Of a DNA stretch of 36,714 bases, positions 173 through 10,989 are shown one piece after another. Positions within the stretch are counted from its first letter, which is position 1. Every line of letters starts with the position of its first letter. Both the position numbers and the translations under genes were made by a program. Location of the stretch: IMG/VR virus record IMGVR_UViG_2547132418_000017, one strand, 5' to 3'. Source of the DNA: a virus (taxonomy: Duplodnaviria; Heunggongvirae; Uroviricota; Caudoviricetes). The notes under the pieces were generated by a model, which did no database searches, had not been told where the DNA came from, and saw only the letters and a list, made by a program, of their open reading frames with translations.

Positions 173-850
173 TCATGCTAATTTTTTGCTTACAGGCTTC
201 GTTTCTTGCTCCGGCGTGGCAACGGTCTGACCACCAGGCGACCCAGCCCGTGCACGAGATTCGATGCGTCGCAAAATCTCTTTGTCAGTTTCTTCATTAC
301 CAGCCAATGCCATGCAAATAGCGTCTTTAAGCGATTCCCTGATGTTTAGGCTTCTGATGGCAGTCTCTTGTTCGTCCAGGTCGCTGTCGGCCTGCATAGC
401 TTGCCTGGTGGGTTGTTGTAAGCGTTCCAAGACTCCTTTGATACCGATGTTGTAAAAAACATCAAGCAAAACATCTAAATCTTGAGCATTCATGCGCTGT
501 AATAGGAGATTTAATTCTGTTCTTTCGGTCGGATTTTGTTGCGGATTATTGTTTTCTGTAGCGGATTTTCCTGAAATTAACCACTCTACGGGAACATTGC
601 ATGCATGAGCCACCAAAGCTGCGCTGTCTATACCTGGGTAGATCTTCCCCTGCACGTACTTTCGTATTGTGGCTTCAGATAACCCACTCAGTTTTGACAG
701 TGTCATGTAATTTAATCCGCTGCCTTCCATAGCTGATTTAAGGCGCTCGCCGAAGCGGATTATATCCATAGCCTCAATAATCCGTTCTTTCTCGGTTTGC
801 TTGCTTGCGGTTTTATCTGCGTAACCGTTTCTTTTTAAAGAGTTTTTCAT
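173..850 (-). CDS. Prophage repressor, N-terminal HTH (XRE/CI-like), 225 aa
   Basis: Leftward ORF divergent from the early operon; N-terminal helix-turn-helix-like segment LSKLSGLSEATIRKYVQGK; not similar to the Mu c repressor sequence as I recall it. Confidence 0.7.
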   Translation of the reverse strand: MKNSLKRNGYADKTASKQTEKERIIEAMDIIRFGERLKSAMEGSGLNYMTLSKLSGLSEATIRKYVQGKIYPGIDSAALVAHACNVPVEWLISGKSATENNNPQQNPTERTELNLLLQRMNAQDLDVLLDVFYNIGIKGVLERLQQPTRQAMQADSDLDEQETAIRSLNIRESLKDAICMALAGNEETDKEILRRIESRARAGSPGGQTVATPEQETKPVSKKLA

Positions 851-864
851 ATTGCACCTGTGGC

Positions 865-917
865 ATACAAAAATCCGTCAAGACAAATACAAAAATCCGT
901 TGACAGCGGATTTTTGT
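865..917 (+). promoter_or_regulatory. Candidate operator: three copies of ACAAAAATCCG (two direct, one inverted)
   Basis: ATACAAAAATCCGT at 865..878 and 887..900; inverted copy CGGATTTTTGT at 907..917; copies 889..899 and 907..917 form a perfect 11-bp inverted repeat with 7-bp spacer. Confidence 0.55.
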
Positions 918-928
918 TTCACTAGGAT
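900..928 (+). promoter_or_regulatory. Candidate early promoter (Pe-like): -35 TTGACA 900..905, 17-bp spacer, -10 TAGGAT 923..928
   Basis: Consensus -35 hexamer sits inside the operator inverted repeat, about 60 bp upstream of the ner start. Confidence 0.5.
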
Positions 929-988
929 TTATCACATCAGATAAATGGTTTTGATTATCTGAATCGATAAATTGGAGAGGATCACACA

Positions 989-1261
989 ATGCAGTTATCG
1001 AGACAAGATCTAACTGACTTGTTTGTTCGTCGCGGACAAGACTGGTCTAGCAAAGCAATTGCAGCCGCCCTTGATAATAAAGGGGTTGATATCACTACGA
1101 TGGAGCGTGTACGCGGCTTAAAACCTGGTGCAATGCGTAACGTGTTTTATCGCCGCGTACCTGCATATGAATCAGCAATTGCAGAAGCAATTGGTGTGGA
1201 ACCGGAAGTTATCTGGCCATCACGTTATCGGAATAAAAATCCGCATAGCAACGCTGCATAG
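989..1261 (+). CDS. ner: Ner-like DNA-binding protein (Mu Ner/Nlp family), 90 aa
   Basis: First gene of early operon; C-terminal PEVIWPSRY matches the conserved Ner motif; SD GGAGAGG 974..980. Confidence 0.85.
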   Translation: MQLSRQDLTDLFVRRGQDWSSKAIAAALDNKGVDITTMERVRGLKPGAMRNVFYRRVPAYESAIAEAIGVEPEVIWPSRYRNKNPHSNAA

Positions 1262-1269
1262 GTGATGTT

Positions 1270-3312
1270 ATGTGGATTACAGCAAAAGAGTGTGCTGGCA
1301 TTGGAGGGCTACCAACACGTGAACACAATGTCAGAGCACGTCTAGATCGTGTAATTGAGAATAAACCTGAATTAAGGCGCAAGCGTGAAGGCACAAAAGC
1401 ATTCGAGTATCACATCGACTGCCTGCCCGCTGAAGCGGAGAAAGTTTTACGTAAGCGCCTGACCCATCAGGTCCTGGAAGATACGCAACTGCCCGCCGTG
1501 GTTGAGCAGAAGGCAGTTAAAAACGTTACCGTTCGCGATGAACTGGAGGTGATGGTCAAATGCCCGGAACTGGCATTACGCGAAGTTCAGGCACTGACTG
1601 ACAAGCAAAAAGCCATCGCAGATGCGCGGATATTGCTGGCTACCGAAGTGCATAAACTGCGTGAATACGCAGGAATGTCCAGGACGGCGGCGATAAAACA
1701 CATCGTTGATGGTATCCGGCAGGAGGCTTTGCCCGAGCGTGTTATTGTGGCAGGTAATACCGCCAATGCCCGACAGGGTAAGCGAACTGGCGTCAGTACA
1801 GGGAGTTTACAGGAATGGTATTCCGCCTGGCTGATGGCGCGCGGTGATGCCAATCAGTTACTGGCGTTACTGGCTCCCGGTCATCATAAGGGGACACCGT
1901 GGGAGCAGGTCTGGTGGTTGAGCGATTTCTTAATGTTCTATCGCTCATGGAAGCGCCCGACCGTTGAATATGCGTATCGCGAGTTTTCAGCCTGGTGGCA
2001 TGAAAAACACGCGAATGATGCGGGAATGCTGGCAGCACTGCCTTCAGTTCATGCAGTAAGACGGGTGTTAAGCAGCGTCCCGGTGATTGTTAAAGAGCGT
2101 TTCCGCTCCACCGGTTCAGCCTGGCGTTCGCTCAATCCCTTTGTGCGGCGCGACTGGACATCATTACCGGTTAATGCGGTATGGGTCGGGGATGGTCACT
2201 GTATGAAAATGACCGCGTTTAACCCCCTGACCGGCAATATTTTCCGGCCAGAAGTAACGCTGGTTATGGATGCGGGACAACGCTTTGTTGTGGGCTGGTC
2301 ACTGTCCCTGTCGGAGAACGTGATAGCCGTTGCTGATGCGTTACGTTACGGCATGGCGCAGCACGGGATACCGCTGGTTTATTACTCCGATAACGGGGGC
2401 GGTGAAAAAAACCGGGTGCTTGATGCCGATATTACCGGGATTCTGCCCCGGCTGGGTGTGGAACATCACACGGGGATACCAGGTAACCCGCAGGGGCGCG
2501 GGGTGATTGAAAGGCTTAATAAGGAAATTCCCCGGGATGTGGCCCTGAGTTTCCAGACGTACTGCTCAAAGGGAGCAGACAAGGAAACCGTAATGATGCA
2601 GCAACGGATTATGCAGTCAGCCATTAAGGCCACCCACAAAGGGAAAGAACTGACAAAACGGCAGGTTAAGGCGAGGGATGAAATCCCCACCTTTGAGCAG
2701 CTGATGGCAGCTATAGAGCTGGAGGTCAGACGCTATAACAACCGACCACACAGCAGCCTTCCCCGCAAAGAGGATGGCGAATATTACAGCCCGGCAGCGT
2801 ATCGCCGGAAACTGATAAAAGAGCAGAATGTTGAAATTGATTTCCTGTCGCCGGAAGAACTGCATGAAATGTTCAGACCGGAAGTGACGCGCAAAACATT
2901 TCGCGGGGAAATTCAGTTATTCAACAATATTTATTACTCGTATGAGCTGGCCGCAGAGCACGGGAATGAAGTCAGGGTCAGTTACGATATTCATGATGCA
3001 AACAGCGTCATTGTCCGGCGGGCTGATGGCTCTTATATCTGCGATGCCATCTGGAACGGTAACAAGGTTGATGCCTTCGCTAAACCAGTTATCGAACAAA
3101 AACTGGAGAAACGCGTCAGAGGCCGCATTGCACGGGCCACGCAGAAAATCGAAGAGGCTAAACGCGAGCTTACCCCGGCTATTACGCAGAAACCTGACTT
3201 TAATTTTGGATTTGGTCTGGAGCGCCCGGAGAAAAAGGATAAAGAAGAACTTTATTTATTTGCATCTGAACGCGAACGCAATTTAAAGAAAAACGGCACA
3301 AACAACCGTTAA
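1270..3312 (+). CDS. Mu-type DDE transposase A, 680 aa
   Basis: Size and position after ner; catalytic-core-like motifs VWVGDGHCM and VYYSDNGGGE. Confidence 0.9.
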   Translation: MWITAKECAGIGGLPTREHNVRARLDRVIENKPELRRKREGTKAFEYHIDCLPAEAEKVLRKRLTHQVLEDTQLPAVVEQKAVKNVTVRDELEVMVKCPELALREVQALTDKQKAIADARILLATEVHKLREYAGMSRTAAIKHIVDGIRQEALPERVIVAGNTANARQGKRTGVSTGSLQEWYSAWLMARGDANQLLALLAPGHHKGTPWEQVWWLSDFLMFYRSWKRPTVEYAYREFSAWWHEKHANDAGMLAALPSVHAVRRVLSSVPVIVKERFRSTGSAWRSLNPFVRRDWTSLPVNAVWVGDGHCMKMTAFNPLTGNIFRPEVTLVMDAGQRFVVGWSLSLSENVIAVADALRYGMAQHGIPLVYYSDNGGGEKNRVLDADITGILPRLGVEHHTGIPGNPQGRGVIERLNKEIPRDVALSFQTYCSKGADKETVMMQQRIMQSAIKATHKGKELTKRQVKARDEIPTFEQLMAAIELEVRRYNNRPHSSLPRKEDGEYYSPAAYRRKLIKEQNVEIDFLSPEELHEMFRPEVTRKTFRGEIQLFNNIYYSYELAAEHGNEVRVSYDIHDANSVIVRRADGSYICDAIWNGNKVDAFAKPVIEQKLEKRVRGRIARATQKIEEAKRELTPAITQKPDFNFGFGLERPEKKDKEELYLFASERERNLKKNGTNNR

Positions 3313-3330: not shown

Positions 3331-4224
3331 ATGAGTTTAATTACGCAATTAAATGACGTAATGGCCCGTCGCGGCTATACGCAGACCCACGTCGCCCGTG
3401 CTATTGGTCGTAGCAGCGCCGTTATCAACCAGTATTTACAGGGTAAATATCAGGGCGATATGGCTGATATTGAAGAACGCATTTCTGCCTTCGTGACCCG
3501 TGAGCGGGAAAAGGAAAACAGCCGCCGTATTAAAGCAAAGTTTGTGACCACCGGTATGGCTGCCAAAGGACTGGAGGTGCTGGCCTACGCTCACCTGGAA
3601 TGTGAAATCTGTGTGCTGTATGGCGCGGCAGGTCTTGGCAAAACAATGATTCTGCGTGAATACGCCTCCAGAAACCGGGATGCGGTCCTGATTGAGGCTG
3701 ACCCGGGCTATACAGCCAGGACACTGCTTGAGGAGTTGTGCCGCCAGCTGGGGGTAAAGGTTCGCGGCAACATTCACGAACTGATTGATGCCTGTGTGCG
3801 CGAACTGCGTGATTCCGGTCGTCTGCTGATGGTGGACGAGGCTGAACTGCTCCCCTATCGCGCACTGGAGGTTCTGCGCCGTCTGCATGACAAAGCGGGT
3901 ATCGGGGTTGTCCTGGCGGGTATGCCTCGTCTTCTGATTAATCTCAAGGGGCGTCGTGGTGAATTTGCGCAGTTATACAGCCGCGTGGCGCTGGCGCTTA
4001 ACCTGGGCGACATGCTGGCGCAGGAAGATTTTAACCAGATAGCCACCGGGCTGATGCCGGAAGCAGCAGAACGGGAAATCAGCGAGGCGCTTTACGCACG
4101 CTCGCTGGGTAATGCCCGCCGCCTGTTCAAACTGGCGCGTGGTGTGTACCGGATTTGTGATATCAGCGATGCGCCGGTCAGTGTGCAGGCCATTGATAAA
4201 TTCGCAGAAATGTTAATTCACTGA
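3331..4224 (+). CDS. Mu-type transposition ATPase B, 297 aa
   Basis: Walker A GAAGLGKT, Walker B LLMVDEAE, N-terminal HTH-like segment; immediately downstream of transposase A. Confidence 0.9.
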   Translation: MSLITQLNDVMARRGYTQTHVARAIGRSSAVINQYLQGKYQGDMADIEERISAFVTREREKENSRRIKAKFVTTGMAAKGLEVLAYAHLECEICVLYGAAGLGKTMILREYASRNRDAVLIEADPGYTARTLLEELCRQLGVKVRGNIHELIDACVRELRDSGRLLMVDEAELLPYRALEVLRRLHDKAGIGVVLAGMPRLLINLKGRRGEFAQLYSRVALALNLGDMLAQEDFNQIATGLMPEAAEREISEALYARSLGNARRLFKLARGVYRICDISDAPVSVQAIDKFAEMLIH

Positions 4225-8492: not shown

Positions 8493-8825
8493 ATGCGCAG
8501 ACCAAAACATATGTTTTGGTCTTCCAAAAGTGATGTTTTGGTCATTATGAAAATTGAACAAATCGGAATAGCTGCCTTCAGGCAGCAGGCTGAAAGCGGT
8601 GGTGTGGATGAGTTCGTCGTGCAGCGGTTCGGTGGTGTGTATCACCTCTTCGCTGTGAATCGCCGCGCCGGGGTGTCCTATTTTCTACAGGAACGCCGTG
8701 GCGATTACAAGACGTGGCTGTCTCTTGACCGTGCCGCCGCGTTCCTGTCGGGGATTGGTGTTTCACGTTTTACCGTGCGTTTTGAGGATAACAAACATGC
8801 TGAAAAAGATGATCGGGGCCATTAA
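8493..8825 (+). CDS. Hypothetical protein (start ambiguous: 8493, 8511 or 8547)
   Basis: ORF upstream of and overlapping the GemA-like gene by 29 nt in another frame; no strong SD at any candidate start. Confidence 0.35.
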   Translation: MRRPKHMFWSSKSDVLVIMKIEQIGIAAFRQQAESGGVDEFVVQRFGGVYHLFAVNRRAGVSYFLQERRGDYKTWLSLDRAAAFLSGIGVSRFTVRFEDNKHAEKDDRGH

Positions 8826-9192
8826 AGCCGGTCAGGCGTATCTGGGGTGGGATGATGCCCTTTATCGCCAGACGCTGGCCCGCCTGACCGGTAAAACCAG
8901 CACCACACGCTGCAATCTCGATGAACTGCGCATCATCCGGGAATACATGCACGAACAGGGATTCCCGCGCAAGGCACCCGCTGGTAAAGGTCGCCGCCCT
9001 CGTGTTGCAATGAGCAGAAAATCAGTATTATCCAAAATTGAAGCGTTGCTGGCTGATGCCGGTCGTTCCTGGGCGTATGTAGAAGGACTGGCATCTCACA
9101 TGTATAAGCAACATGTGATCGAATGGCTGACGGATGAACAGCTTTTTGGAGTGATGGTGGCGCTGGTTAAAGATTCAAGGAGACGTAAATGA
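8797..9192 (+). CDS. gemA: GemA-like protein (Mu gp16 family), 131 aa
   Basis: ATG 8797 with SD GAGG upstream; sequence recalled as resembling the Mu gp16/GemA (DUF1018) family; position just before the Mor-like gene as in Mu. Confidence 0.55.
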   Translation: MLKKMIGAIKAGQAYLGWDDALYRQTLARLTGKTSTTRCNLDELRIIREYMHEQGFPRKAPAGKGRRPRVAMSRKSVLSKIEALLADAGRSWAYVEGLASHMYKQHVIEWLTDEQLFGVMVALVKDSRRRK

Positions 9193-9527
9193 AAAAACTG
9201 TTATTACTTATTCTGACTTTATGTTTTACAGGGATATCCCATGCTTCTGATTCAGAGGAAGATTTGATCAAAAAAACATTACAGGGCGATTATCAGGCAC
9301 AACGTAATCTGGCTTATTCATACATGAATGGCTGGGATGATATTTCAAAGGATACCATCAGAGGATGCGCTCTCAGGAAGGTTATTCTCTTAACACAAGC
9401 CCAAGCTGACATTGGCGATTATGGAAATGAAGCCATAGATTGTCGAAAAGTGCATCCAACAGATAACCAGAAAGTATGGGAGTATGTCAGAGGATACCTG
9501 GTGTTGATAAACGAGAATAAAAAATAA
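9189..9527 (+). CDS. Secreted or lipoprotein-like small protein, 112 aa (moron candidate)
   Basis: N-terminal signal-peptide-like MKKLLLLILTLCFTGISHA; strongly AT-rich relative to neighbours; followed by an intrinsic terminator. Confidence 0.6.
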   Translation: MKKLLLLILTLCFTGISHASDSEEDLIKKTLQGDYQAQRNLAYSYMNGWDDISKDTIRGCALRKVILLTQAQADIGDYGNEAIDCRKVHPTDNQKVWEYVRGYLVLINENKK

Positions 9528-9537
9528 TATGAATAAC

Positions 9538-9564
9538 AACCTTCGCAAACGCGGAGGTTTTTTA
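9538..9564 (+). terminator. Rho-independent terminator
   Basis: Stem CCTTCGC/GCGGAGG (one G-U pair), loop AAAC, then TTTTTTA. Confidence 0.6.
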
Positions 9565-9591
9565 TGGTCTGTACAGGCGATCATGTATGGC

Positions 9592-9597
9592 TATAAT
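9592..9597 (+). promoter_or_regulatory. Perfect -10 hexamer TATAAT with no recognisable -35 (candidate activator-dependent promoter)
   Basis: TATAAT 30 bp upstream of the Mor-like ATG; sequence 17-18 bp upstream (CTGTAC) is a poor -35. Confidence 0.4.
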
Positions 9598-9626
9598 AAC
9601 AGTAAGTTACTAACGGAGACGCCATC

Positions 9627-10094
9627 ATGCAGACCTTCAGTGAAACAGATCTTCGCGATGCACAGGCACTGCTACCCGATTCCGTACAGCAACTGATTAG
9701 CGTGATTGGCTTCCCCGCCCTGACCCGGTTGATTTGTTCTTTTGGTGGTGTGACGTTAAGTGGTAAAACCGGCGCACACGCCGAACGCACCGGCGGTGTC
9801 CATGCCCTGTTACATGACGTGCTGACCGAAGACGAAATCAACAAACTGATCCGCTTTCTTGGCGGTGCACCGTTTTACATTCCCCGTTGCGATCATGCGT
9901 TACGTGCCCTGCGTAACACCCGTTTTATGGCTGATTTACAGCAGCATGTAAAAGGCGGATGCTCACACCGGCAGGCGCTGGCACTGCTCTGTCCCCGTTA
10001 CGGCATTTCAGACCGGTACGCATGGCAGCTGATACACCGACGACAAAAACAGACTTCGCTGAAAAGCCCCACCCAGGTGGGGCTTTTTGATTAA
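9627..10094 (+). CDS. mor: Mor/C-family transcriptional activator, 155 aa
   Basis: FYIPRCDHALRALRNTRF and C-terminal HTH-like RYGISDRYAWQLI resemble Mu Mor/C; located before the lysis and late genes. Confidence 0.75.
   Translation: MQTFSETDLRDAQALLPDSVQQLISVIGFPALTRLICSFGGVTLSGKTGAHAERTGGVHALLHDVLTEDEINKLIRFLGGAPFYIPRCDHALRALRNTRFMADLQQHVKGGCSHRQALALLCPRYGISDRYAWQLIHRRQKQTSLKSPTQVGLFD
10065..10089 (+). terminator. Rho-independent terminator overlapping the 3' end of the Mor-like gene
   Basis: AGCCCCACC / GGTGGGGCT stem followed by TTTTT; lies within the last codons of the ORF. Confidence 0.65.
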
Positions 10095-10121
10095 TGGGCC
10101 TCAGAAAAAAGGAGACACGAA

Positions 10122-10409
10122 ATGATGCGTTCTGACACCGATATCGACTATGCAGTACTCGGTGAATATACCGCATTTTCAGACAAGGCCCGGGATGCAG
10201 CCCGTCGCCGACATGCTGAAATGTGTAATTTATCCAGTTACCTGGCGAAACAGGCCCAAAGCCCGGAATCAGTAACGAATCATGATGAAGTGCTGTCAGC
10301 CGTAAACAGAATGATTGACGCAGAACGGGAAATGCGTAATGCCGTGGAAAGAGCTAACCTGCTGGCGCGGGCATGTTATAAGCCACCATTAAAACTCGCT
10401 TCTCTTTAA
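10122..10409 (+). CDS. Hypothetical protein, 95 aa
   Basis: Strong SD AAGGAG 7 nt upstream of ATG; no recognisable family. Confidence 0.5.
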   Translation: MMRSDTDIDYAVLGEYTAFSDKARDAARRRHAEMCNLSSYLAKQAQSPESVTNHDEVLSAVNRMIDAEREMRNAVERANLLARACYKPPLKLASL

Positions 10410-10596
10410 CCCATCCAGATAATCAACCTGCCGGGGGTGCTGAACTCCCCCAGCAGTACCCACCACACCAGACCGTTTACCCTGTCCACTCAGACCACAA
10501 GGCACCTTAAGGGATAGCGCCCTGCAAAAGGCTTTTGTGCCTTTGACAGGGTGTTATTTACGGGCCGTCAGTGGCTCAGATTTACAGGAGAAACTC

Positions 10597-10989
10597 ATGT
10601 CTGAACCCTTATCAGGCGGCGGAGCTGTGGCAGTCACCATCGGTGGTGCCAGTGTGTTTGGCCTTCTCACCAATACTGATTTCGGGGTCGTGGTGGGCGC
10701 GTTTGCTGGGGCGCTTTTTGTTGTCACGCAGCAGAAAGAAATCCCGGCATGGCGAATGGCTATTCACCTGCTCGTCGCGTTTGTGGTTGGCGTTCTGGGG
10801 GCTGGCGTGGCTGCGTCACTGATGCAGTGGCTGACCCACTATAACGACAAACCGCTTGATGCATTGTGTGCGGTCGGTGTCTCGGCGTTATCCATCAAGA
10901 TACTGACCTTTCTTTATCAACAGGAAATTTCATCGCTGTTCGGCCTGTTTTCCAGACTGCGCGGCGGAGGGGGTGGAAATGGAAAGTAG
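10597..10989 (+). CDS. Putative holin-like membrane protein, 130 aa
   Basis: ATG 10597 with SD CAGGAG; several hydrophobic helices, Gly-rich C-terminus; first gene of the lysis cassette. Confidence 0.5.
   Translation: MSEPLSGGGAVAVTIGGASVFGLLTNTDFGVVVGAFAGALFVVTQQKEIPAWRMAIHLLVAFVVGVLGAGVAASLMQWLTHYNDKPLDALCAVGVSALSIKILTFLYQQEISSLFGLFSRLRGGGGGNGK

What the first reader, a model, noticed from the sequence alone, without database searches (positions are those of the whole stretch)
9189..9564. AT-rich gene for a secreted or lipoprotein-like small protein with its own terminator (moron candidate)
The 112-aa ORF has a signal-peptide-like N-terminus (MKKLLLLILTLCFTGISHA) and is visibly more AT-rich than its neighbours. 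It is followed by a clean intrinsic terminator (9538..9564) and sits between the GemA-like and Mor-like regulators. Acquired cargo like this often encodes superinfection exclusion or host-fitness factors.
Basis: partly seen in the sequence, partly recalled or inferred. Interest (0 to 1): 0.5.

Follow-up and report, generated by a model that had tools for sequence, protein, structure and literature searches.

The report
Exported mini-Sel1 cargo gene, Mu-like prophage
This is a real, optional "cargo" gene of a Mu-like prophage that makes a small protein exported to the space between the bacterial membranes; it belongs to an unstudied family tied to transposable phages, sits in a slot that related phages leave empty or fill with other exported proteins, and probably works by binding a cell-envelope target, though that target is unknown.

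Summary
ORF 9189..9527 (112 aa) lies between GemA and Mor genes. It is the lowest-GC stretch of the 36.7-kb window (0.378 against 0.54) and is followed by a hairpin plus U-run at 9538..9565.

- The protein has an SPase-I-type signal peptide but no lipobox.
- The mature 93 residues fold confidently as a five-helix Sel1-like repeat (SLR) module, with two invariant cysteines placed to form a disulfide.
- It belongs to phrog_5882 (function unknown). No Pfam, NCBIfam or PADLOC family matched.
- It is true cargo. Of 58 E. coli genomes with this gemA-mor region, 13 carry it, about 22 and 5 carry two unrelated exported proteins, and 18 have an empty slot.
- It is not a classical moron. Its ATG overlaps the gemA stop codon (ATGA) and no promoter was found. 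Its terminator takes the place of the early-operon terminator that the empty allele also has.

In other transposable phages, homologues sit as the last cistron after GemA, Mor or the repressor, usually just upstream of the lysis genes.

The most likely mechanism, which is inferred, is a periplasmic protein-binding blocker, for example of superinfection or of an incoming hydrolase. Function is untested.

The parts
8797..9192 (+). gemA (gp16-family) gene. Its stop codon TGA (9190..9192) overlaps the start codon of the cargo gene. Its last codons differ between slot alleles.
   Evidence: Pfam GemA E 3.8e-18. Sequence. Allele comparison.
9180..9564 (+). The exchangeable cassette, comprising the ribosome-binding region, the ORF and the terminator. 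The flanks are 96-98% identical to other E. coli Mu-like prophages. This segment is replaced by unrelated sequence or is absent.
   Evidence: Pairwise alignment with E2348/69 shows identity up to ...GATTCAAG (9179) and again from TGGTCTGTACAGG (9565). E. coli genome survey. Empty allele L096.
9179..9182 (+). Shine-Dalgarno GGAG, 6 nt upstream of the ATG and inside the gemA coding sequence.
   Evidence: Read from the sequence.
9189..9527 (+). Cargo ORF of 112 aa, a member of phrog_5882 (function unknown).
   Evidence: ORF list. phrog_5882 E 9.9e-58 over the full length. dN/dS 0.22. The exact protein is indexed in 583 blocks of the public assembly collection.
9189..9245 (+). Predicted Sec signal peptide (aa 1-19, MKKLLLLILTLCFTGISHA), with cleavage predicted after SHA.
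   Evidence: Hydropathy and the -3/-1 rule. pLDDT below 50 for residues 1-19 only. Signal-peptide character is family-wide. Not run through SignalP.
9246..9524 (+). Mature 93-aa domain (pI 5.3, 10.7 kDa). It has five helices: one canonical Sel1-like repeat (GDYQAQRNLAYSYMNGW...) plus a C-terminal capping hairpin and helix.
9366..9368 (+). Codon for Cys60, invariant in the family and near the start of helix 3.
   Evidence: Invariant column. Helix limits.
9441..9443 (+). Codon for Cys85, invariant in the family and at the end of helix 4. It is the presumed disulfide partner of Cys60.
   Evidence: Invariant column. The antiparallel helix 3 / helix 4 hairpin. The disulfide itself is inferred.
9538..9565 (+). 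Intrinsic terminator (stem AACCUUCGC/GCGGAGGUU, loop AAAC, then a U-run). It is specific to the cassette but occupies the place of the early-operon terminator.
   Evidence: Consensus scan. Fold of -13.2 kcal/mol, z -3.0. A different terminator occupies the same place in the other alleles.
9570..9597 (+). Context: a sigma-70-like site, TGTACA-16 nt-TATAAT, upstream of mor. It is conserved in all slot alleles and is not part of the cassette.
   Evidence: Scan. Identical in L003, L095 and L096.
9627..10094 (+). Context: a Mor-family activator gene, whose 3' end carries a second terminator (about 10061..10092).
   Evidence: Pfam Mor and phrog_836. Fold of -21.2 kcal/mol.

Best explanation
The gene is an optional cargo cassette (RBS + ORF + terminator) inserted at the very end of the early operon of a Mu-like transposable prophage, between the gemA stop codon and the point where early transcription terminates. 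It has no promoter of its own and is translationally coupled to gemA. It is therefore made whenever the early operon is transcribed, that is on infection or induction, plus whatever escapes repression.

The product is exported by the Sec pathway and cut by signal peptidase I. It folds in the periplasm into a 93-residue, five-helix mini Sel1-like-repeat module, locked by a Cys60-Cys85 disulfide. Like other SLR proteins it has no catalytic features and most likely acts by binding another protein in the cell envelope.

The role I commit to is a periplasmic blocker that protects the infected or lysogenic cell. It would sequester an envelope component, or an incoming periplasm-acting enzyme such as a phage-borne or host cell-wall hydrolase. 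The effect would resemble superinfection exclusion, as with T4 Spackle.

Shown: the gene, its composition, cassette exchange, coupling to gemA, the terminator, the fold, the conserved cysteines, family-wide signal peptides, and linkage to transposable phages.

Inferred: export and cleavage, the disulfide, timing of expression, binding function, and the exclusion or protection role.
For: Cargo status. Among 58 E. coli complete genomes with at least 95% identical flanks, the slot holds one of the following: this gene (13 genomes); an unrelated 158-aa protein with a signal peptide (about 22, checked in E2348/69); an unrelated 174-aa protein with a signal peptide (5, checked in strain M8); or nothing but a terminator (18, checked in strain tcmA_3). 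Phage Mu has no gene here.

Composition. The ORF is the GC minimum of the window. Family-wide, the gene is more than 3 GC points below its 6-kb flanks in 42 of 62 loci and never more than 3 points above them.

Coupling. The ATGA overlap, the GGAG 6 nt upstream, and the absence of a promoter-like site in the 700 nt upstream.

Fold and sequence relationship. pLDDT is 85 overall and above 90 for the mature part. The best structural matches are all SLR proteins. The family profile hits solved SLR proteins. A sub-threshold Pfam Sel1 match covers aa 36-59.

Export. 73 of 82 family members have a strongly hydrophobic N-terminus, and about 19 have a lipobox instead.

Conserved residues. Y35, R39, C60, D77 and C85 are invariant across 40 diverse members.

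Real gene. dN/dS is 0.22.

Link to transposable phages and to regulatory operon ends. Homologues lie -4 to +34 nt after Mor in 12 loci. They lie -4 to +32 nt after the S24/HTH repressor in 7 loci, one with an ATGA overlap. They lie -4 nt after GemA in E. coli and Citrobacter types, and are usually followed by holin or endolysin genes. Operonic linkage to the repressor in some lineages implies expression in lysogens there, which suits a protective function.

Precedents. T4 Spackle is an early, periplasmic, 75-aa helical protein with a disulfide that blocks the gp5 tail lysozyme (PMC7677548). [quoted passage not shown] An SLR T6SS immunity protein, PA5087 (5jkp), appears in the fold hits.
Against: - No experimental or annotated function exists for any member. 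phrog_5882 is 'unknown function', and there are no PADLOC, NCBIfam or Pfam family hits.
- No fold similarity to Spackle or to other known exclusion proteins was seen among the top hits.
- Without a promoter, this copy may not be expressed in a repressed lysogen, which weakens a lysogen-protection role for this phage.
- Signal peptide cleavage and the disulfide are predicted by inspection and topology only.
- The binding partner is unknown.
- SLR modules are generic adaptors, so many other roles are possible.
- The family sits next to several different endolysin and holin types, so context does not identify a target.
Confidence: 0.5

Rival explanations
1. It is a classical lysogenic-conversion moron. 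It would be expressed from the repressed prophage and act on the bacterium's environment or animal host, for example as an adhesion or immune-modulating SLR factor like EsiB, LpnE or the Helicobacter Hcp proteins, and not against phages.
For: - The composition is AT-rich and foreign-looking.
- The gene is present in clinical, poultry and STEC isolates.
- In seven other lineages the gene is operonic with the prophage repressor, so it is expressed in lysogens there.
Against: - No promoter of its own; the ATG overlaps the gemA stop codon.
- A Sec signal alone delivers the protein only to the periplasm, and no secretion system is linked.
- Relatives occur in prophages of free-living bacteria with no animal host, such as Methylobacterium, Mariprofundus, Dechloromonas and Chitinimonas.
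- The common denominator of the family is the transposable phage, not the host niche.
Confidence: 0.17
2. It is a lysis accessory: a periplasmic regulator of the phage's own holin, endolysin or spanin. It would resemble the T4 RI antiholin, or a periplasmic endolysin inhibitor that sets lysis timing.
For: - In at least 20 related loci the gene lies directly upstream of the holin or endolysin genes (Holin_2-3, Phage_holin_8, GH19, SLT, VanY, Phage_lysozyme).
- It is small, helical and periplasmic like RI (comparison from general knowledge).
- An SLR precedent for inhibiting a lytic transglycosylase exists (EnhC; PMC5608400).
Against: - In this window it is separated from the lysis cassette by a terminator, mor, a second terminator and another ORF.
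- E. coli prophages with essentially the same holin and GH108 cassette have the slot empty or filled with unrelated proteins.
- The adjacent lysis enzymes belong to at least five unrelated classes (GH108, Amidase_2, GH19, SLT, VanY). That argues against a specific partner.
Confidence: 0.13
3. It is a lipoprotein anchored in a membrane, the first reader's alternative, acting like the T5 Llp or Cor receptor-blocking lipoproteins.
For: - A Cys at position 12 lies within the hydrophobic N-terminus.
- About 19 of 82 distant family members carry a plausible lipobox such as LSGC or LTGC.
Against: - In this protein the context is L-T-L-C. Position -1 is Leu where the lipobox requires G, A or S.
- The Cys would leave only an 11-residue signal.
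- Cys12 is not conserved, even among close relatives.
- A good SPase I site (S-H-A|S) follows.
Confidence: 0.05
4. It is a non-functional remnant or a chance ORF in AT-rich filler DNA.
For: - The family has no known function.
- It evolves faster than its neighbours, with dN/dS 0.22 against 0.07-0.08.
Against: - Full-length conservation across Enterobacteriaceae, Pasteurellaceae and beta- and alpha-proteobacterial phages, with invariant residues.
- A confident fold.
- dN/dS well below 1.
- A good Shine-Dalgarno sequence and start-stop coupling.
Confidence: 0.02

Closest known systems
Sel1-like repeat (SLR) proteins: E. coli EsiB/c5321 (PDB 4bwr), Legionella LpnE (6deh) and LceB (8sxq), AlgK (3e4b), the Vibrio SflA periplasmic domain (6if6). 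From general knowledge, also the disulfide-bridged Helicobacter Hcp proteins.
   Same: - The family profile hits SLR chains by sequence (E 1.4e-5).
- The GD-x-AQ-x-NL-A/G-x-x-Y-x-x-G motif.
- Exported location.
- A cysteine pair bridging a helix hairpin, as in Hcp proteins (the Hcp comparison is from memory).
   Different: - Only one canonical repeat plus a capping module (93 residues), where SLR proteins have 3 to more than 20 repeats.
- Below the Pfam Sel1 gathering score (15.5 against 30.7 bits).
- Family-specific invariant residues Y35, R39, D77 and N80.
- Phage-borne and tied to transposable phages.
Bacteriophage T4 Spackle (Sp), a superinfection exclusion protein
   Same: A small periplasmic protein with a cleaved signal, a compact all-helical fold with one disulfide, made from an early phage transcript. 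It acts purely by binding, to the gp5 lysozyme (PMC7677548).
   Different: No sequence or fold match was detected. The target for the present protein is unknown. Mu-like phages are not known to me to carry a gp5-type tail lysozyme. The resemblance is one of design only.
Legionella EnhC and the Pseudomonas PA5087-type T6SS immunity proteins (periplasmic SLR inhibitors)
   Same: SLR proteins that work in the periplasm by binding and neutralising an enzyme: SltL lytic transglycosylase for EnhC (PMC5608400), and a T6SS phospholipase effector for PA5087 (function from general knowledge; 5jkp is in the fold hits).
   Different: Those are large multi-repeat chromosomal proteins. No effector or hydrolase gene is consistently paired with the present family.
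Morons of temperate phages (Hendrix/Juhala concept; e.g. lambda bor and lom, HK97 gene 15)
   Same: An extra gene present in some but not other close relatives, with atypical base composition, ending in its own terminator and inserted between conserved genes.
   Different: No promoter of its own. The start codon overlaps the preceding gene's stop codon, so it is an operon-terminal cassette and not an autonomous transcription unit.
phrog_5882 (PHROGs v4)
   Same: Full-length match, E 9.9e-58. Relatives from Burkholderia, Aquitalea, Methylobacterium and Pasteurellaceae phages match the same family.
   Different: The family carries no functional annotation, so membership names the gene but does not explain it.

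Membership tests
Moron (autonomous accessory transcription unit in a temperate phage) | Present in some and absent from other closely related phages at the same position | tested here: met
   13 of 58 E. coli genomes carry it, 18 have an empty slot and the rest hold other genes. It is absent in phage Mu.
Moron (autonomous accessory transcription unit in a temperate phage) | Nucleotide composition unlike the surrounding phage genome | tested here: met
   GC is 0.378 against 0.54, the lowest 0.05% of windows. The deficit is family-wide.
Moron (autonomous accessory transcription unit in a temperate phage) | Own terminator downstream | tested here: met
   A hairpin plus U-run at 9538..9565, z -3.0. 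However, a terminator exists at this place in every allele, including the empty one.
Moron (autonomous accessory transcription unit in a temperate phage) | Own promoter upstream | tested here: not met
   The ATG overlaps the gemA stop codon. No sigma-70-like site lies on the + strand between 8467 and 9570. This was a consensus scan only, so weak or non-sigma-70 promoters are not excluded.
Moron (autonomous accessory transcription unit in a temperate phage) | Expression from the repressed prophage | not testable with these tools
   Needs RNA-seq or RT-PCR of an uninduced lysogen.
Sel1-like repeat family (Pfam PF08238) | Pfam Sel1 HMM match above the gathering score | tested here: not met
   15.5 bits against a cut-off of 30.7, E 0.026, aa 36-59. 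Only 9 of 40 relatives give even weak hits.
Sel1-like repeat family (Pfam PF08238) | Alpha/alpha hairpin repeat fold superimposable on solved SLR proteins | tested here: met
   [not shown]
Sel1-like repeat family (Pfam PF08238) | Several tandem repeats forming a superhelix | tested here: not met
   Five helices in 93 residues: one canonical repeat plus a cap.
Sec / signal peptidase I secreted protein | Positively charged n-region, hydrophobic h-region and small residues at -3/-1 | tested here: met
   MKK / LLLLILTLCFTGI / S-H-A|S. Residues 1-19 are disordered in the model. The feature is conserved in 73 of 82 members. Judged by rule-based inspection, not by SignalP.
Bacterial lipoprotein (signal peptidase II) | Lipobox [LVI][ASTVI][GAS]C at the end of the signal peptide | tested here: not met
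   The context is LTLC (Leu at -1), and Cys12 is not conserved. Some distant members do have lipoboxes.
Known superinfection-exclusion or anti-phage defence proteins | Sequence or fold similarity to a described exclusion or defence protein | tested here: not met
   No hit in PADLOC. No significant hit in BFVD. Spackle, Llp and Cor are not among the PDB fold hits.
Known superinfection-exclusion or anti-phage defence proteins | Reduces infection by a challenging phage | not testable with these tools
   Needs plating and adsorption/injection assays.
phrog_5882 | Full-length HMM match | tested here: met
   E 9.9e-58, residues 1-112 against profile positions 1-114 of 114.

The most novel reading that the evidence does not exclude
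phrog_5882 would be a previously unrecognised class of minimal, disulfide-locked single-repeat SLR proteins that transposable (Mu-like) phages across Proteobacteria deploy in the periplasm as binding-only blockers. It would be a Spackle-like exclusion or anti-hydrolase function built on a different fold. In that reading, the end of the early operon in the E. coli lineage is a dedicated exchange point for interchangeable periplasmic 'armour' genes: three unrelated exported proteins plus an empty allele.
Probability: 0.3. Interest if true: 0.6.

Novelty: new variant of a known kind. Interest (0 to 1): 0.4.

Why it matters
Periplasm-acting phage accessory proteins are among the least understood prophage cargo, and very few have known mechanisms (Spackle, Llp and Cor are examples).

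This work gives an uncharacterised family a fold, a cellular location, conserved candidate contact residues (Y35, R39, D77, N80) and a disulfide.

It also provides a natural allelic series in E. coli: this gene, two other exported proteins and an empty slot, all in otherwise near-identical prophages. That series makes the function directly testable with isogenic lysogens.

The work further shows that 'moron-like' cargo can be plugged into the last position of an operon without a promoter. This matters for predicting when such genes are expressed.

If the protein turns out to be an ordinary adaptor with a minor effect, the finding stays a routine annotation improvement.

Tried and rejected
**Searches that found nothing useful**
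- Megablast of 8700..10100 against 50,697 phage records: no match. This prophage lineage is not among the deposited phages.
- tblastn against phages: only Mannheimia phage 3927AP2 (38% identity). With more distant queries, also Rhizobium phage RR1-A. Both are annotated as hypothetical.
- Pfam, NCBIfam and PADLOC: no family hit, only a sub-threshold Sel1 match.
- BFVD viral structure library: nothing significant.
- The afdb50 library was not available.
- Rfam on 8600..10600: only sub-threshold, terminator-like hits and no RNA family.
- Literature searches for SLR + prophage + periplasm, for GemA/Mor/moron, and for Mu-like + exclusion + signal peptide found no paper on this family. The Mannheimia phage paper does not discuss the gene.

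**Ideas rejected**
- Lipoprotein: rejected on the lipobox test.
- Specific partner of the endolysin or holin: the neighbouring lysis enzymes belong to at least five classes, and the gene is dispensable in phages with the same lysis cassette.
- Immunity protein paired with a toxin: the upstream genes in non-Mu contexts are heterogeneous (tape measure, MmeI-type RM enzyme, CobW, hydrolase, S24 repressor) and show no recurrent effector.
- Recent acquisition: the Citrobacter-type copy is about as diverged as its flanks (88% against 87-88% nucleotide identity). The cassette is therefore an old resident despite its low GC.

**Procedural**
It was rerun without that sequence.
Full report

Yes. The window is a complete Mu-like transposable prophage. 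It has a repressor at 173..850 (-), a Mu-type transposase at 1270..3312, a B-like ATPase at 3331..4224, then GemA, Mor, holins, a GH108 endolysin, Mu-type portal and F proteins and so on.

- The ORF at 9189..9527 encodes 112 aa.
- It lies between a GemA gene (Pfam E 3.8e-18) and a Mor-family gene (Pfam E 1e-6; phrog_836 E 1.5e-42).
- Its GC content is 0.378 (GC3 0.354). The window as a whole is 0.54 and its two neighbours are 0.52-0.54. It is the GC minimum of the 36.7 kb, since only 0.05% of equally long windows are as low.
- Ten bases after the stop codon there is a 9-bp G+C-rich hairpin followed by UUUUAU (9538..9565). It folds at -13.2 kcal/mol, z -3.0 against shuffles.
- The N-terminus has the three regions of a Sec signal peptide.

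**2. What the protein is**

No curated family claims it. Pfam gives only a sub-threshold Sel1 hit (15.5 bits against 30.7; aa 36-59). NCBIfam and PADLOC give nothing. It is a full-length member of phrog_5882, annotated 'unknown function'.

An AlphaFold2 model built on ten homologues is confident. pLDDT is 85 overall and above 90 for residues 20-110. Only residues 1-19, the predicted signal peptide, fall below 50. The model shows five helices.

The structural neighbours are Sel1-like repeat (SLR) proteins:
- Foldseek: 4bwr with probability 1.00, TM 0.65 and 1.5 A over 82 columns, followed by AlgK, LceB and SEL1L.
- A profile of 40 diverse family members hits solved SLR proteins by sequence (8sxq, E 1.4e-5). 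Its C-terminal half aligns with the C-terminal cap of EsiB.

The mature protein (93 aa, pI 5.3) is therefore one canonical SLR unit (GDYQAQRNLAYSYMNGW...) plus a capping module.

Across the family, Y35, R39, C60, D77 and C85 are invariant. C60 lies near the start of helix 3 and C85 at the end of the antiparallel helix 4. I infer a disulfide between them; it is not shown.

The lipoprotein alternative fails. The only early cysteine sits in LTLC, with Leu at -1, and is not conserved. S-H-A|S is a good signal peptidase I site.

Export looks like a family property. 73 of 82 members with the core motif have a strongly hydrophobic N-terminus, and about 19 have a lipobox instead.

The gene is under purifying selection, though less tightly than its neighbours. 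dN/dS is 0.22, against 0.07 for gemA and 0.08 for mor, in the comparison with a Citrobacter-type copy.

**3. Is it cargo?**

Yes, and the detail is informative. The 1.4-kb gemA-to-mor region occurs at 96-98% identity in 58 of 5,426 complete E. coli genomes. I classified the alleles by span length and by the annotated features under the match, and I read one representative of each class.

| Slot content | Genomes | Representative read |
|---|---|---|
| This 112-aa gene | 13 | the window itself; L002 |
| Unrelated 158-aa protein, MMKKWLFCLVGVIFSCSVLA\|Q... | about 22 | E2348/69, L003 |
| Unrelated 174-aa protein, VKSKIINSIIIGSLLLSTPVFA\|D..., phrog_19473 | 5 | strain M8, L095 |
| Empty: gemA stop codon, a terminator (AGCCCCTGCCTTGCAGGGGCTTTTTT), then the shared TGTACA-16-TATAAT site and mor | 18 | strain tcmA_3, L096 |

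All three alternative cargoes carry signal peptides. Phage Mu itself has gemA overlapping mor, with nothing between them.

The exchanged segment in the window runs from about 9180 to 9564. Three points correct the 'moron with its own terminator' picture:
- The start codon overlaps the gemA stop codon (ATGA).
- A GGAG lies 6 nt upstream, inside gemA.
- No promoter-like site lies between 8467 and 9570 on the + strand.

The gene is thus built as the last cistron of the early operon. A terminator is present at this point in every allele. Only its sequence is specific to this cassette, so it functions as the early-operon terminator. The C-terminal residues of GemA also differ with the allele.

**4. 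The family elsewhere**

A word-index search found only nine clusters. The exhaustive HMMER search found 98 representatives at E <= 1e-3, a few of which are ordinary multi-repeat Sel1 proteins.

Genome and viral-contig scans gave 83 loci, 62 of them distinct, in gamma-, beta- and alpha-proteobacteria and some metagenome-assembled genomes. At least 47 of the 83 have recognisable transposable-phage neighbours. Three arrangements recur:
- (i) GemA-X-Mor-lysis, in E. coli, Citrobacter and Pasteurellaceae, including Mannheimia phage 3927AP2.
- (ii) GemA-Mor-X-holin/endolysin.
- (iii) In BcepMu-like layouts with a divergent transposase operon, repressor-X followed by holin and an SLT endolysin, or by the prophage end.

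X follows the upstream regulator closely. The gap is -4 to +34 nt after Mor in 12 loci and -4 to +32 nt after the S24/HTH repressor in 7 loci. One of those repressor loci, in Methylobacterium, has an ATGA overlap. In some lineages X is therefore operonic with the repressor and so presumably expressed in lysogens.

In Pasteurellaceae a terminator sits directly upstream of X, with only about 12 nt before the ATG, and another sits downstream.

The low-GC signature is family-wide. X is more than 3 points below its flanks in 42 of 62 loci and never more than 3 points above them.

Contexts outside Mu-like phages are heterogeneous: a tape-measure-like gene, an MmeI-type RM enzyme, another S24 repressor and metabolic genes.

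**5. How it most likely works**

Shown: an optional cassette at the end of a regulatory operon, encoding a small SLR-fold protein with a signal peptide and two invariant cysteines, strongly linked to transposable phages.

Inferred: Sec export, SPase I cleavage after residue 19, a DsbA-made disulfide, and action by binding a partner in the envelope. SLR modules are protein-protein adaptors with no catalytic site.

I commit to a protective or blocking role in the periplasm. This would be exclusion of superinfecting phage at a post-adsorption step, or neutralisation of a periplasm-acting hydrolase. The reasons are:
- (a) The design matches T4 Spackle, an early-expressed, 75-aa, helical, disulfide-bonded periplasmic protein that inhibits the gp5 lysozyme (PMC7677548).
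- (b) Periplasmic SLR proteins are known to neutralise enzymes. EnhC inhibits SltL (PMC5608400). An SLR T6SS immunity protein, PA5087, appears among the fold hits.
- (c) The gene is expressed with different regulators in different lineages: repressor, Mor or the early operon. That fits a function useful both in lysogens and during lytic growth.
- (d) The slot in E. coli accepts only exported proteins.

This role is an analogy and no result here demonstrates it. I put about 0.5 on the whole statement. The anatomical part is much more certain than the biological role.

**6. Rivals**

- A host-directed lysogenic-conversion factor is possible, because the fold neighbours are host-interaction SLR proteins and some relatives are linked to the repressor. 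It is disfavoured by the lack of a promoter, by delivery to the periplasm only, and by relatives in prophages of free-living bacteria.
- A lysis regulator is suggested by the frequent position just upstream of holin and endolysin genes. However, the adjacent lysis enzymes belong to at least five unrelated classes. In this window the gene is insulated from the lysis cassette by two terminators and mor. Phages with the same lysis cassette also do without it.
- The lipoprotein and non-functional-ORF readings are rejected on the lipobox test and on conservation, selection and fold.

**7. Novelty and verdict**

The general kind of thing, accessory phage cargo encoding an exported protein with an SLR fold, is known. 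The specific family is uncharacterised and falls below the Pfam Sel1 threshold. It is an unusually minimal, disulfide-locked, single-repeat form, and I found no paper on it.

The four-allele slot in E. coli offers a ready-made experiment. Interest is moderate (0.4): useful and testable, but not surprising in kind.

Noticed in passing
window 9570..9597 (also L003, L095, L096): A sigma-70-like site, TGTACA-16 nt-TATAAT, lies between the early-operon terminator and mor. It is identical in all four slot alleles. This suggests that mor in this phage lineage has its own promoter downstream of a terminator, unlike phage Mu, where mor overlaps gemA.
   Followed up: partly
window 10061..10092: A strong hairpin plus U-run (AAAAGCCCCACCCAGGUGGGGCUUUUU, -21.2 kcal/mol, z -2.3) overlaps the last codons of mor. 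The consensus terminator scan did not list it. mor therefore appears to be bracketed by two terminators.
   Followed up: partly
L003 3493..3969 (E2348/69) and L095 842..1366 (E. coli M8): The same slot in related E. coli Mu-like prophages holds two other unrelated proteins, of 158 aa and 174 aa. Both have signal peptides and unknown function; the 174-aa one is phrog_19473. Both are followed by the AGCCCCTGCC(A/G)TGCAGGGGCTTTTTT terminator, the same hairpin that the empty allele carries with T at the variable position.
   Followed up: partly
window 9166..9192 versus L003, L095, L096: The C-terminal residues of GemA change with the slot allele: ...VKDSRRRK, ...VKDSRRRNQ, ...VKDARKRNRAK and ...TKDARKRARAARKQ. 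The left recombination junction therefore lies inside the gemA coding sequence.
   Followed up: no
L004 3963..4000 and L001 3882..3955 (Pasteurellaceae Mu-like phages): In these relatives an intrinsic terminator lies between gemA and the homologue. In L004 only about 12 nt separate the U-run from the ATG. The gene therefore sits between two terminators with no room for a promoter, so expression there would need terminator read-through.
   Followed up: no
window 173..850 (-), especially 611..1180: The repressor gene region is the second lowest-GC part of the window (down to 0.386). The repressor has an HTH_3 domain but no Pfam S24 peptidase hit, unlike the repressors next to homologues in several other lineages.
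   Followed up: no
window 10122..10409: A 95-aa ORF between mor and the holins belongs to phrog_7152 (function unknown). Related prophages carry a 92-aa variant at this position, so this may be another variable position.
   Followed up: no
L097-L102: The identical 112-aa protein is indexed in 583 blocks of the public assembly collection. In the six loci examined it always lies in the same prophage slot, while the prophage sits next to different chromosomal genes (for example a MoCoBD_2-domain gene in L098 and a histidine-biosynthesis gene, PRA-CH/PRA-PH, in L101). That is as expected for random transpositional integration. The semi-essential early region upstream (Ead/Ea22, DUF4752 and small ORFs) is mosaic between copies.
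   Followed up: no
L038 1336..4938: In a Hydrogenophaga genome a family member lies directly downstream of an MmeI-type restriction-modification enzyme, a defence gene. It is a single case and its context was not explored.
   Followed up: no
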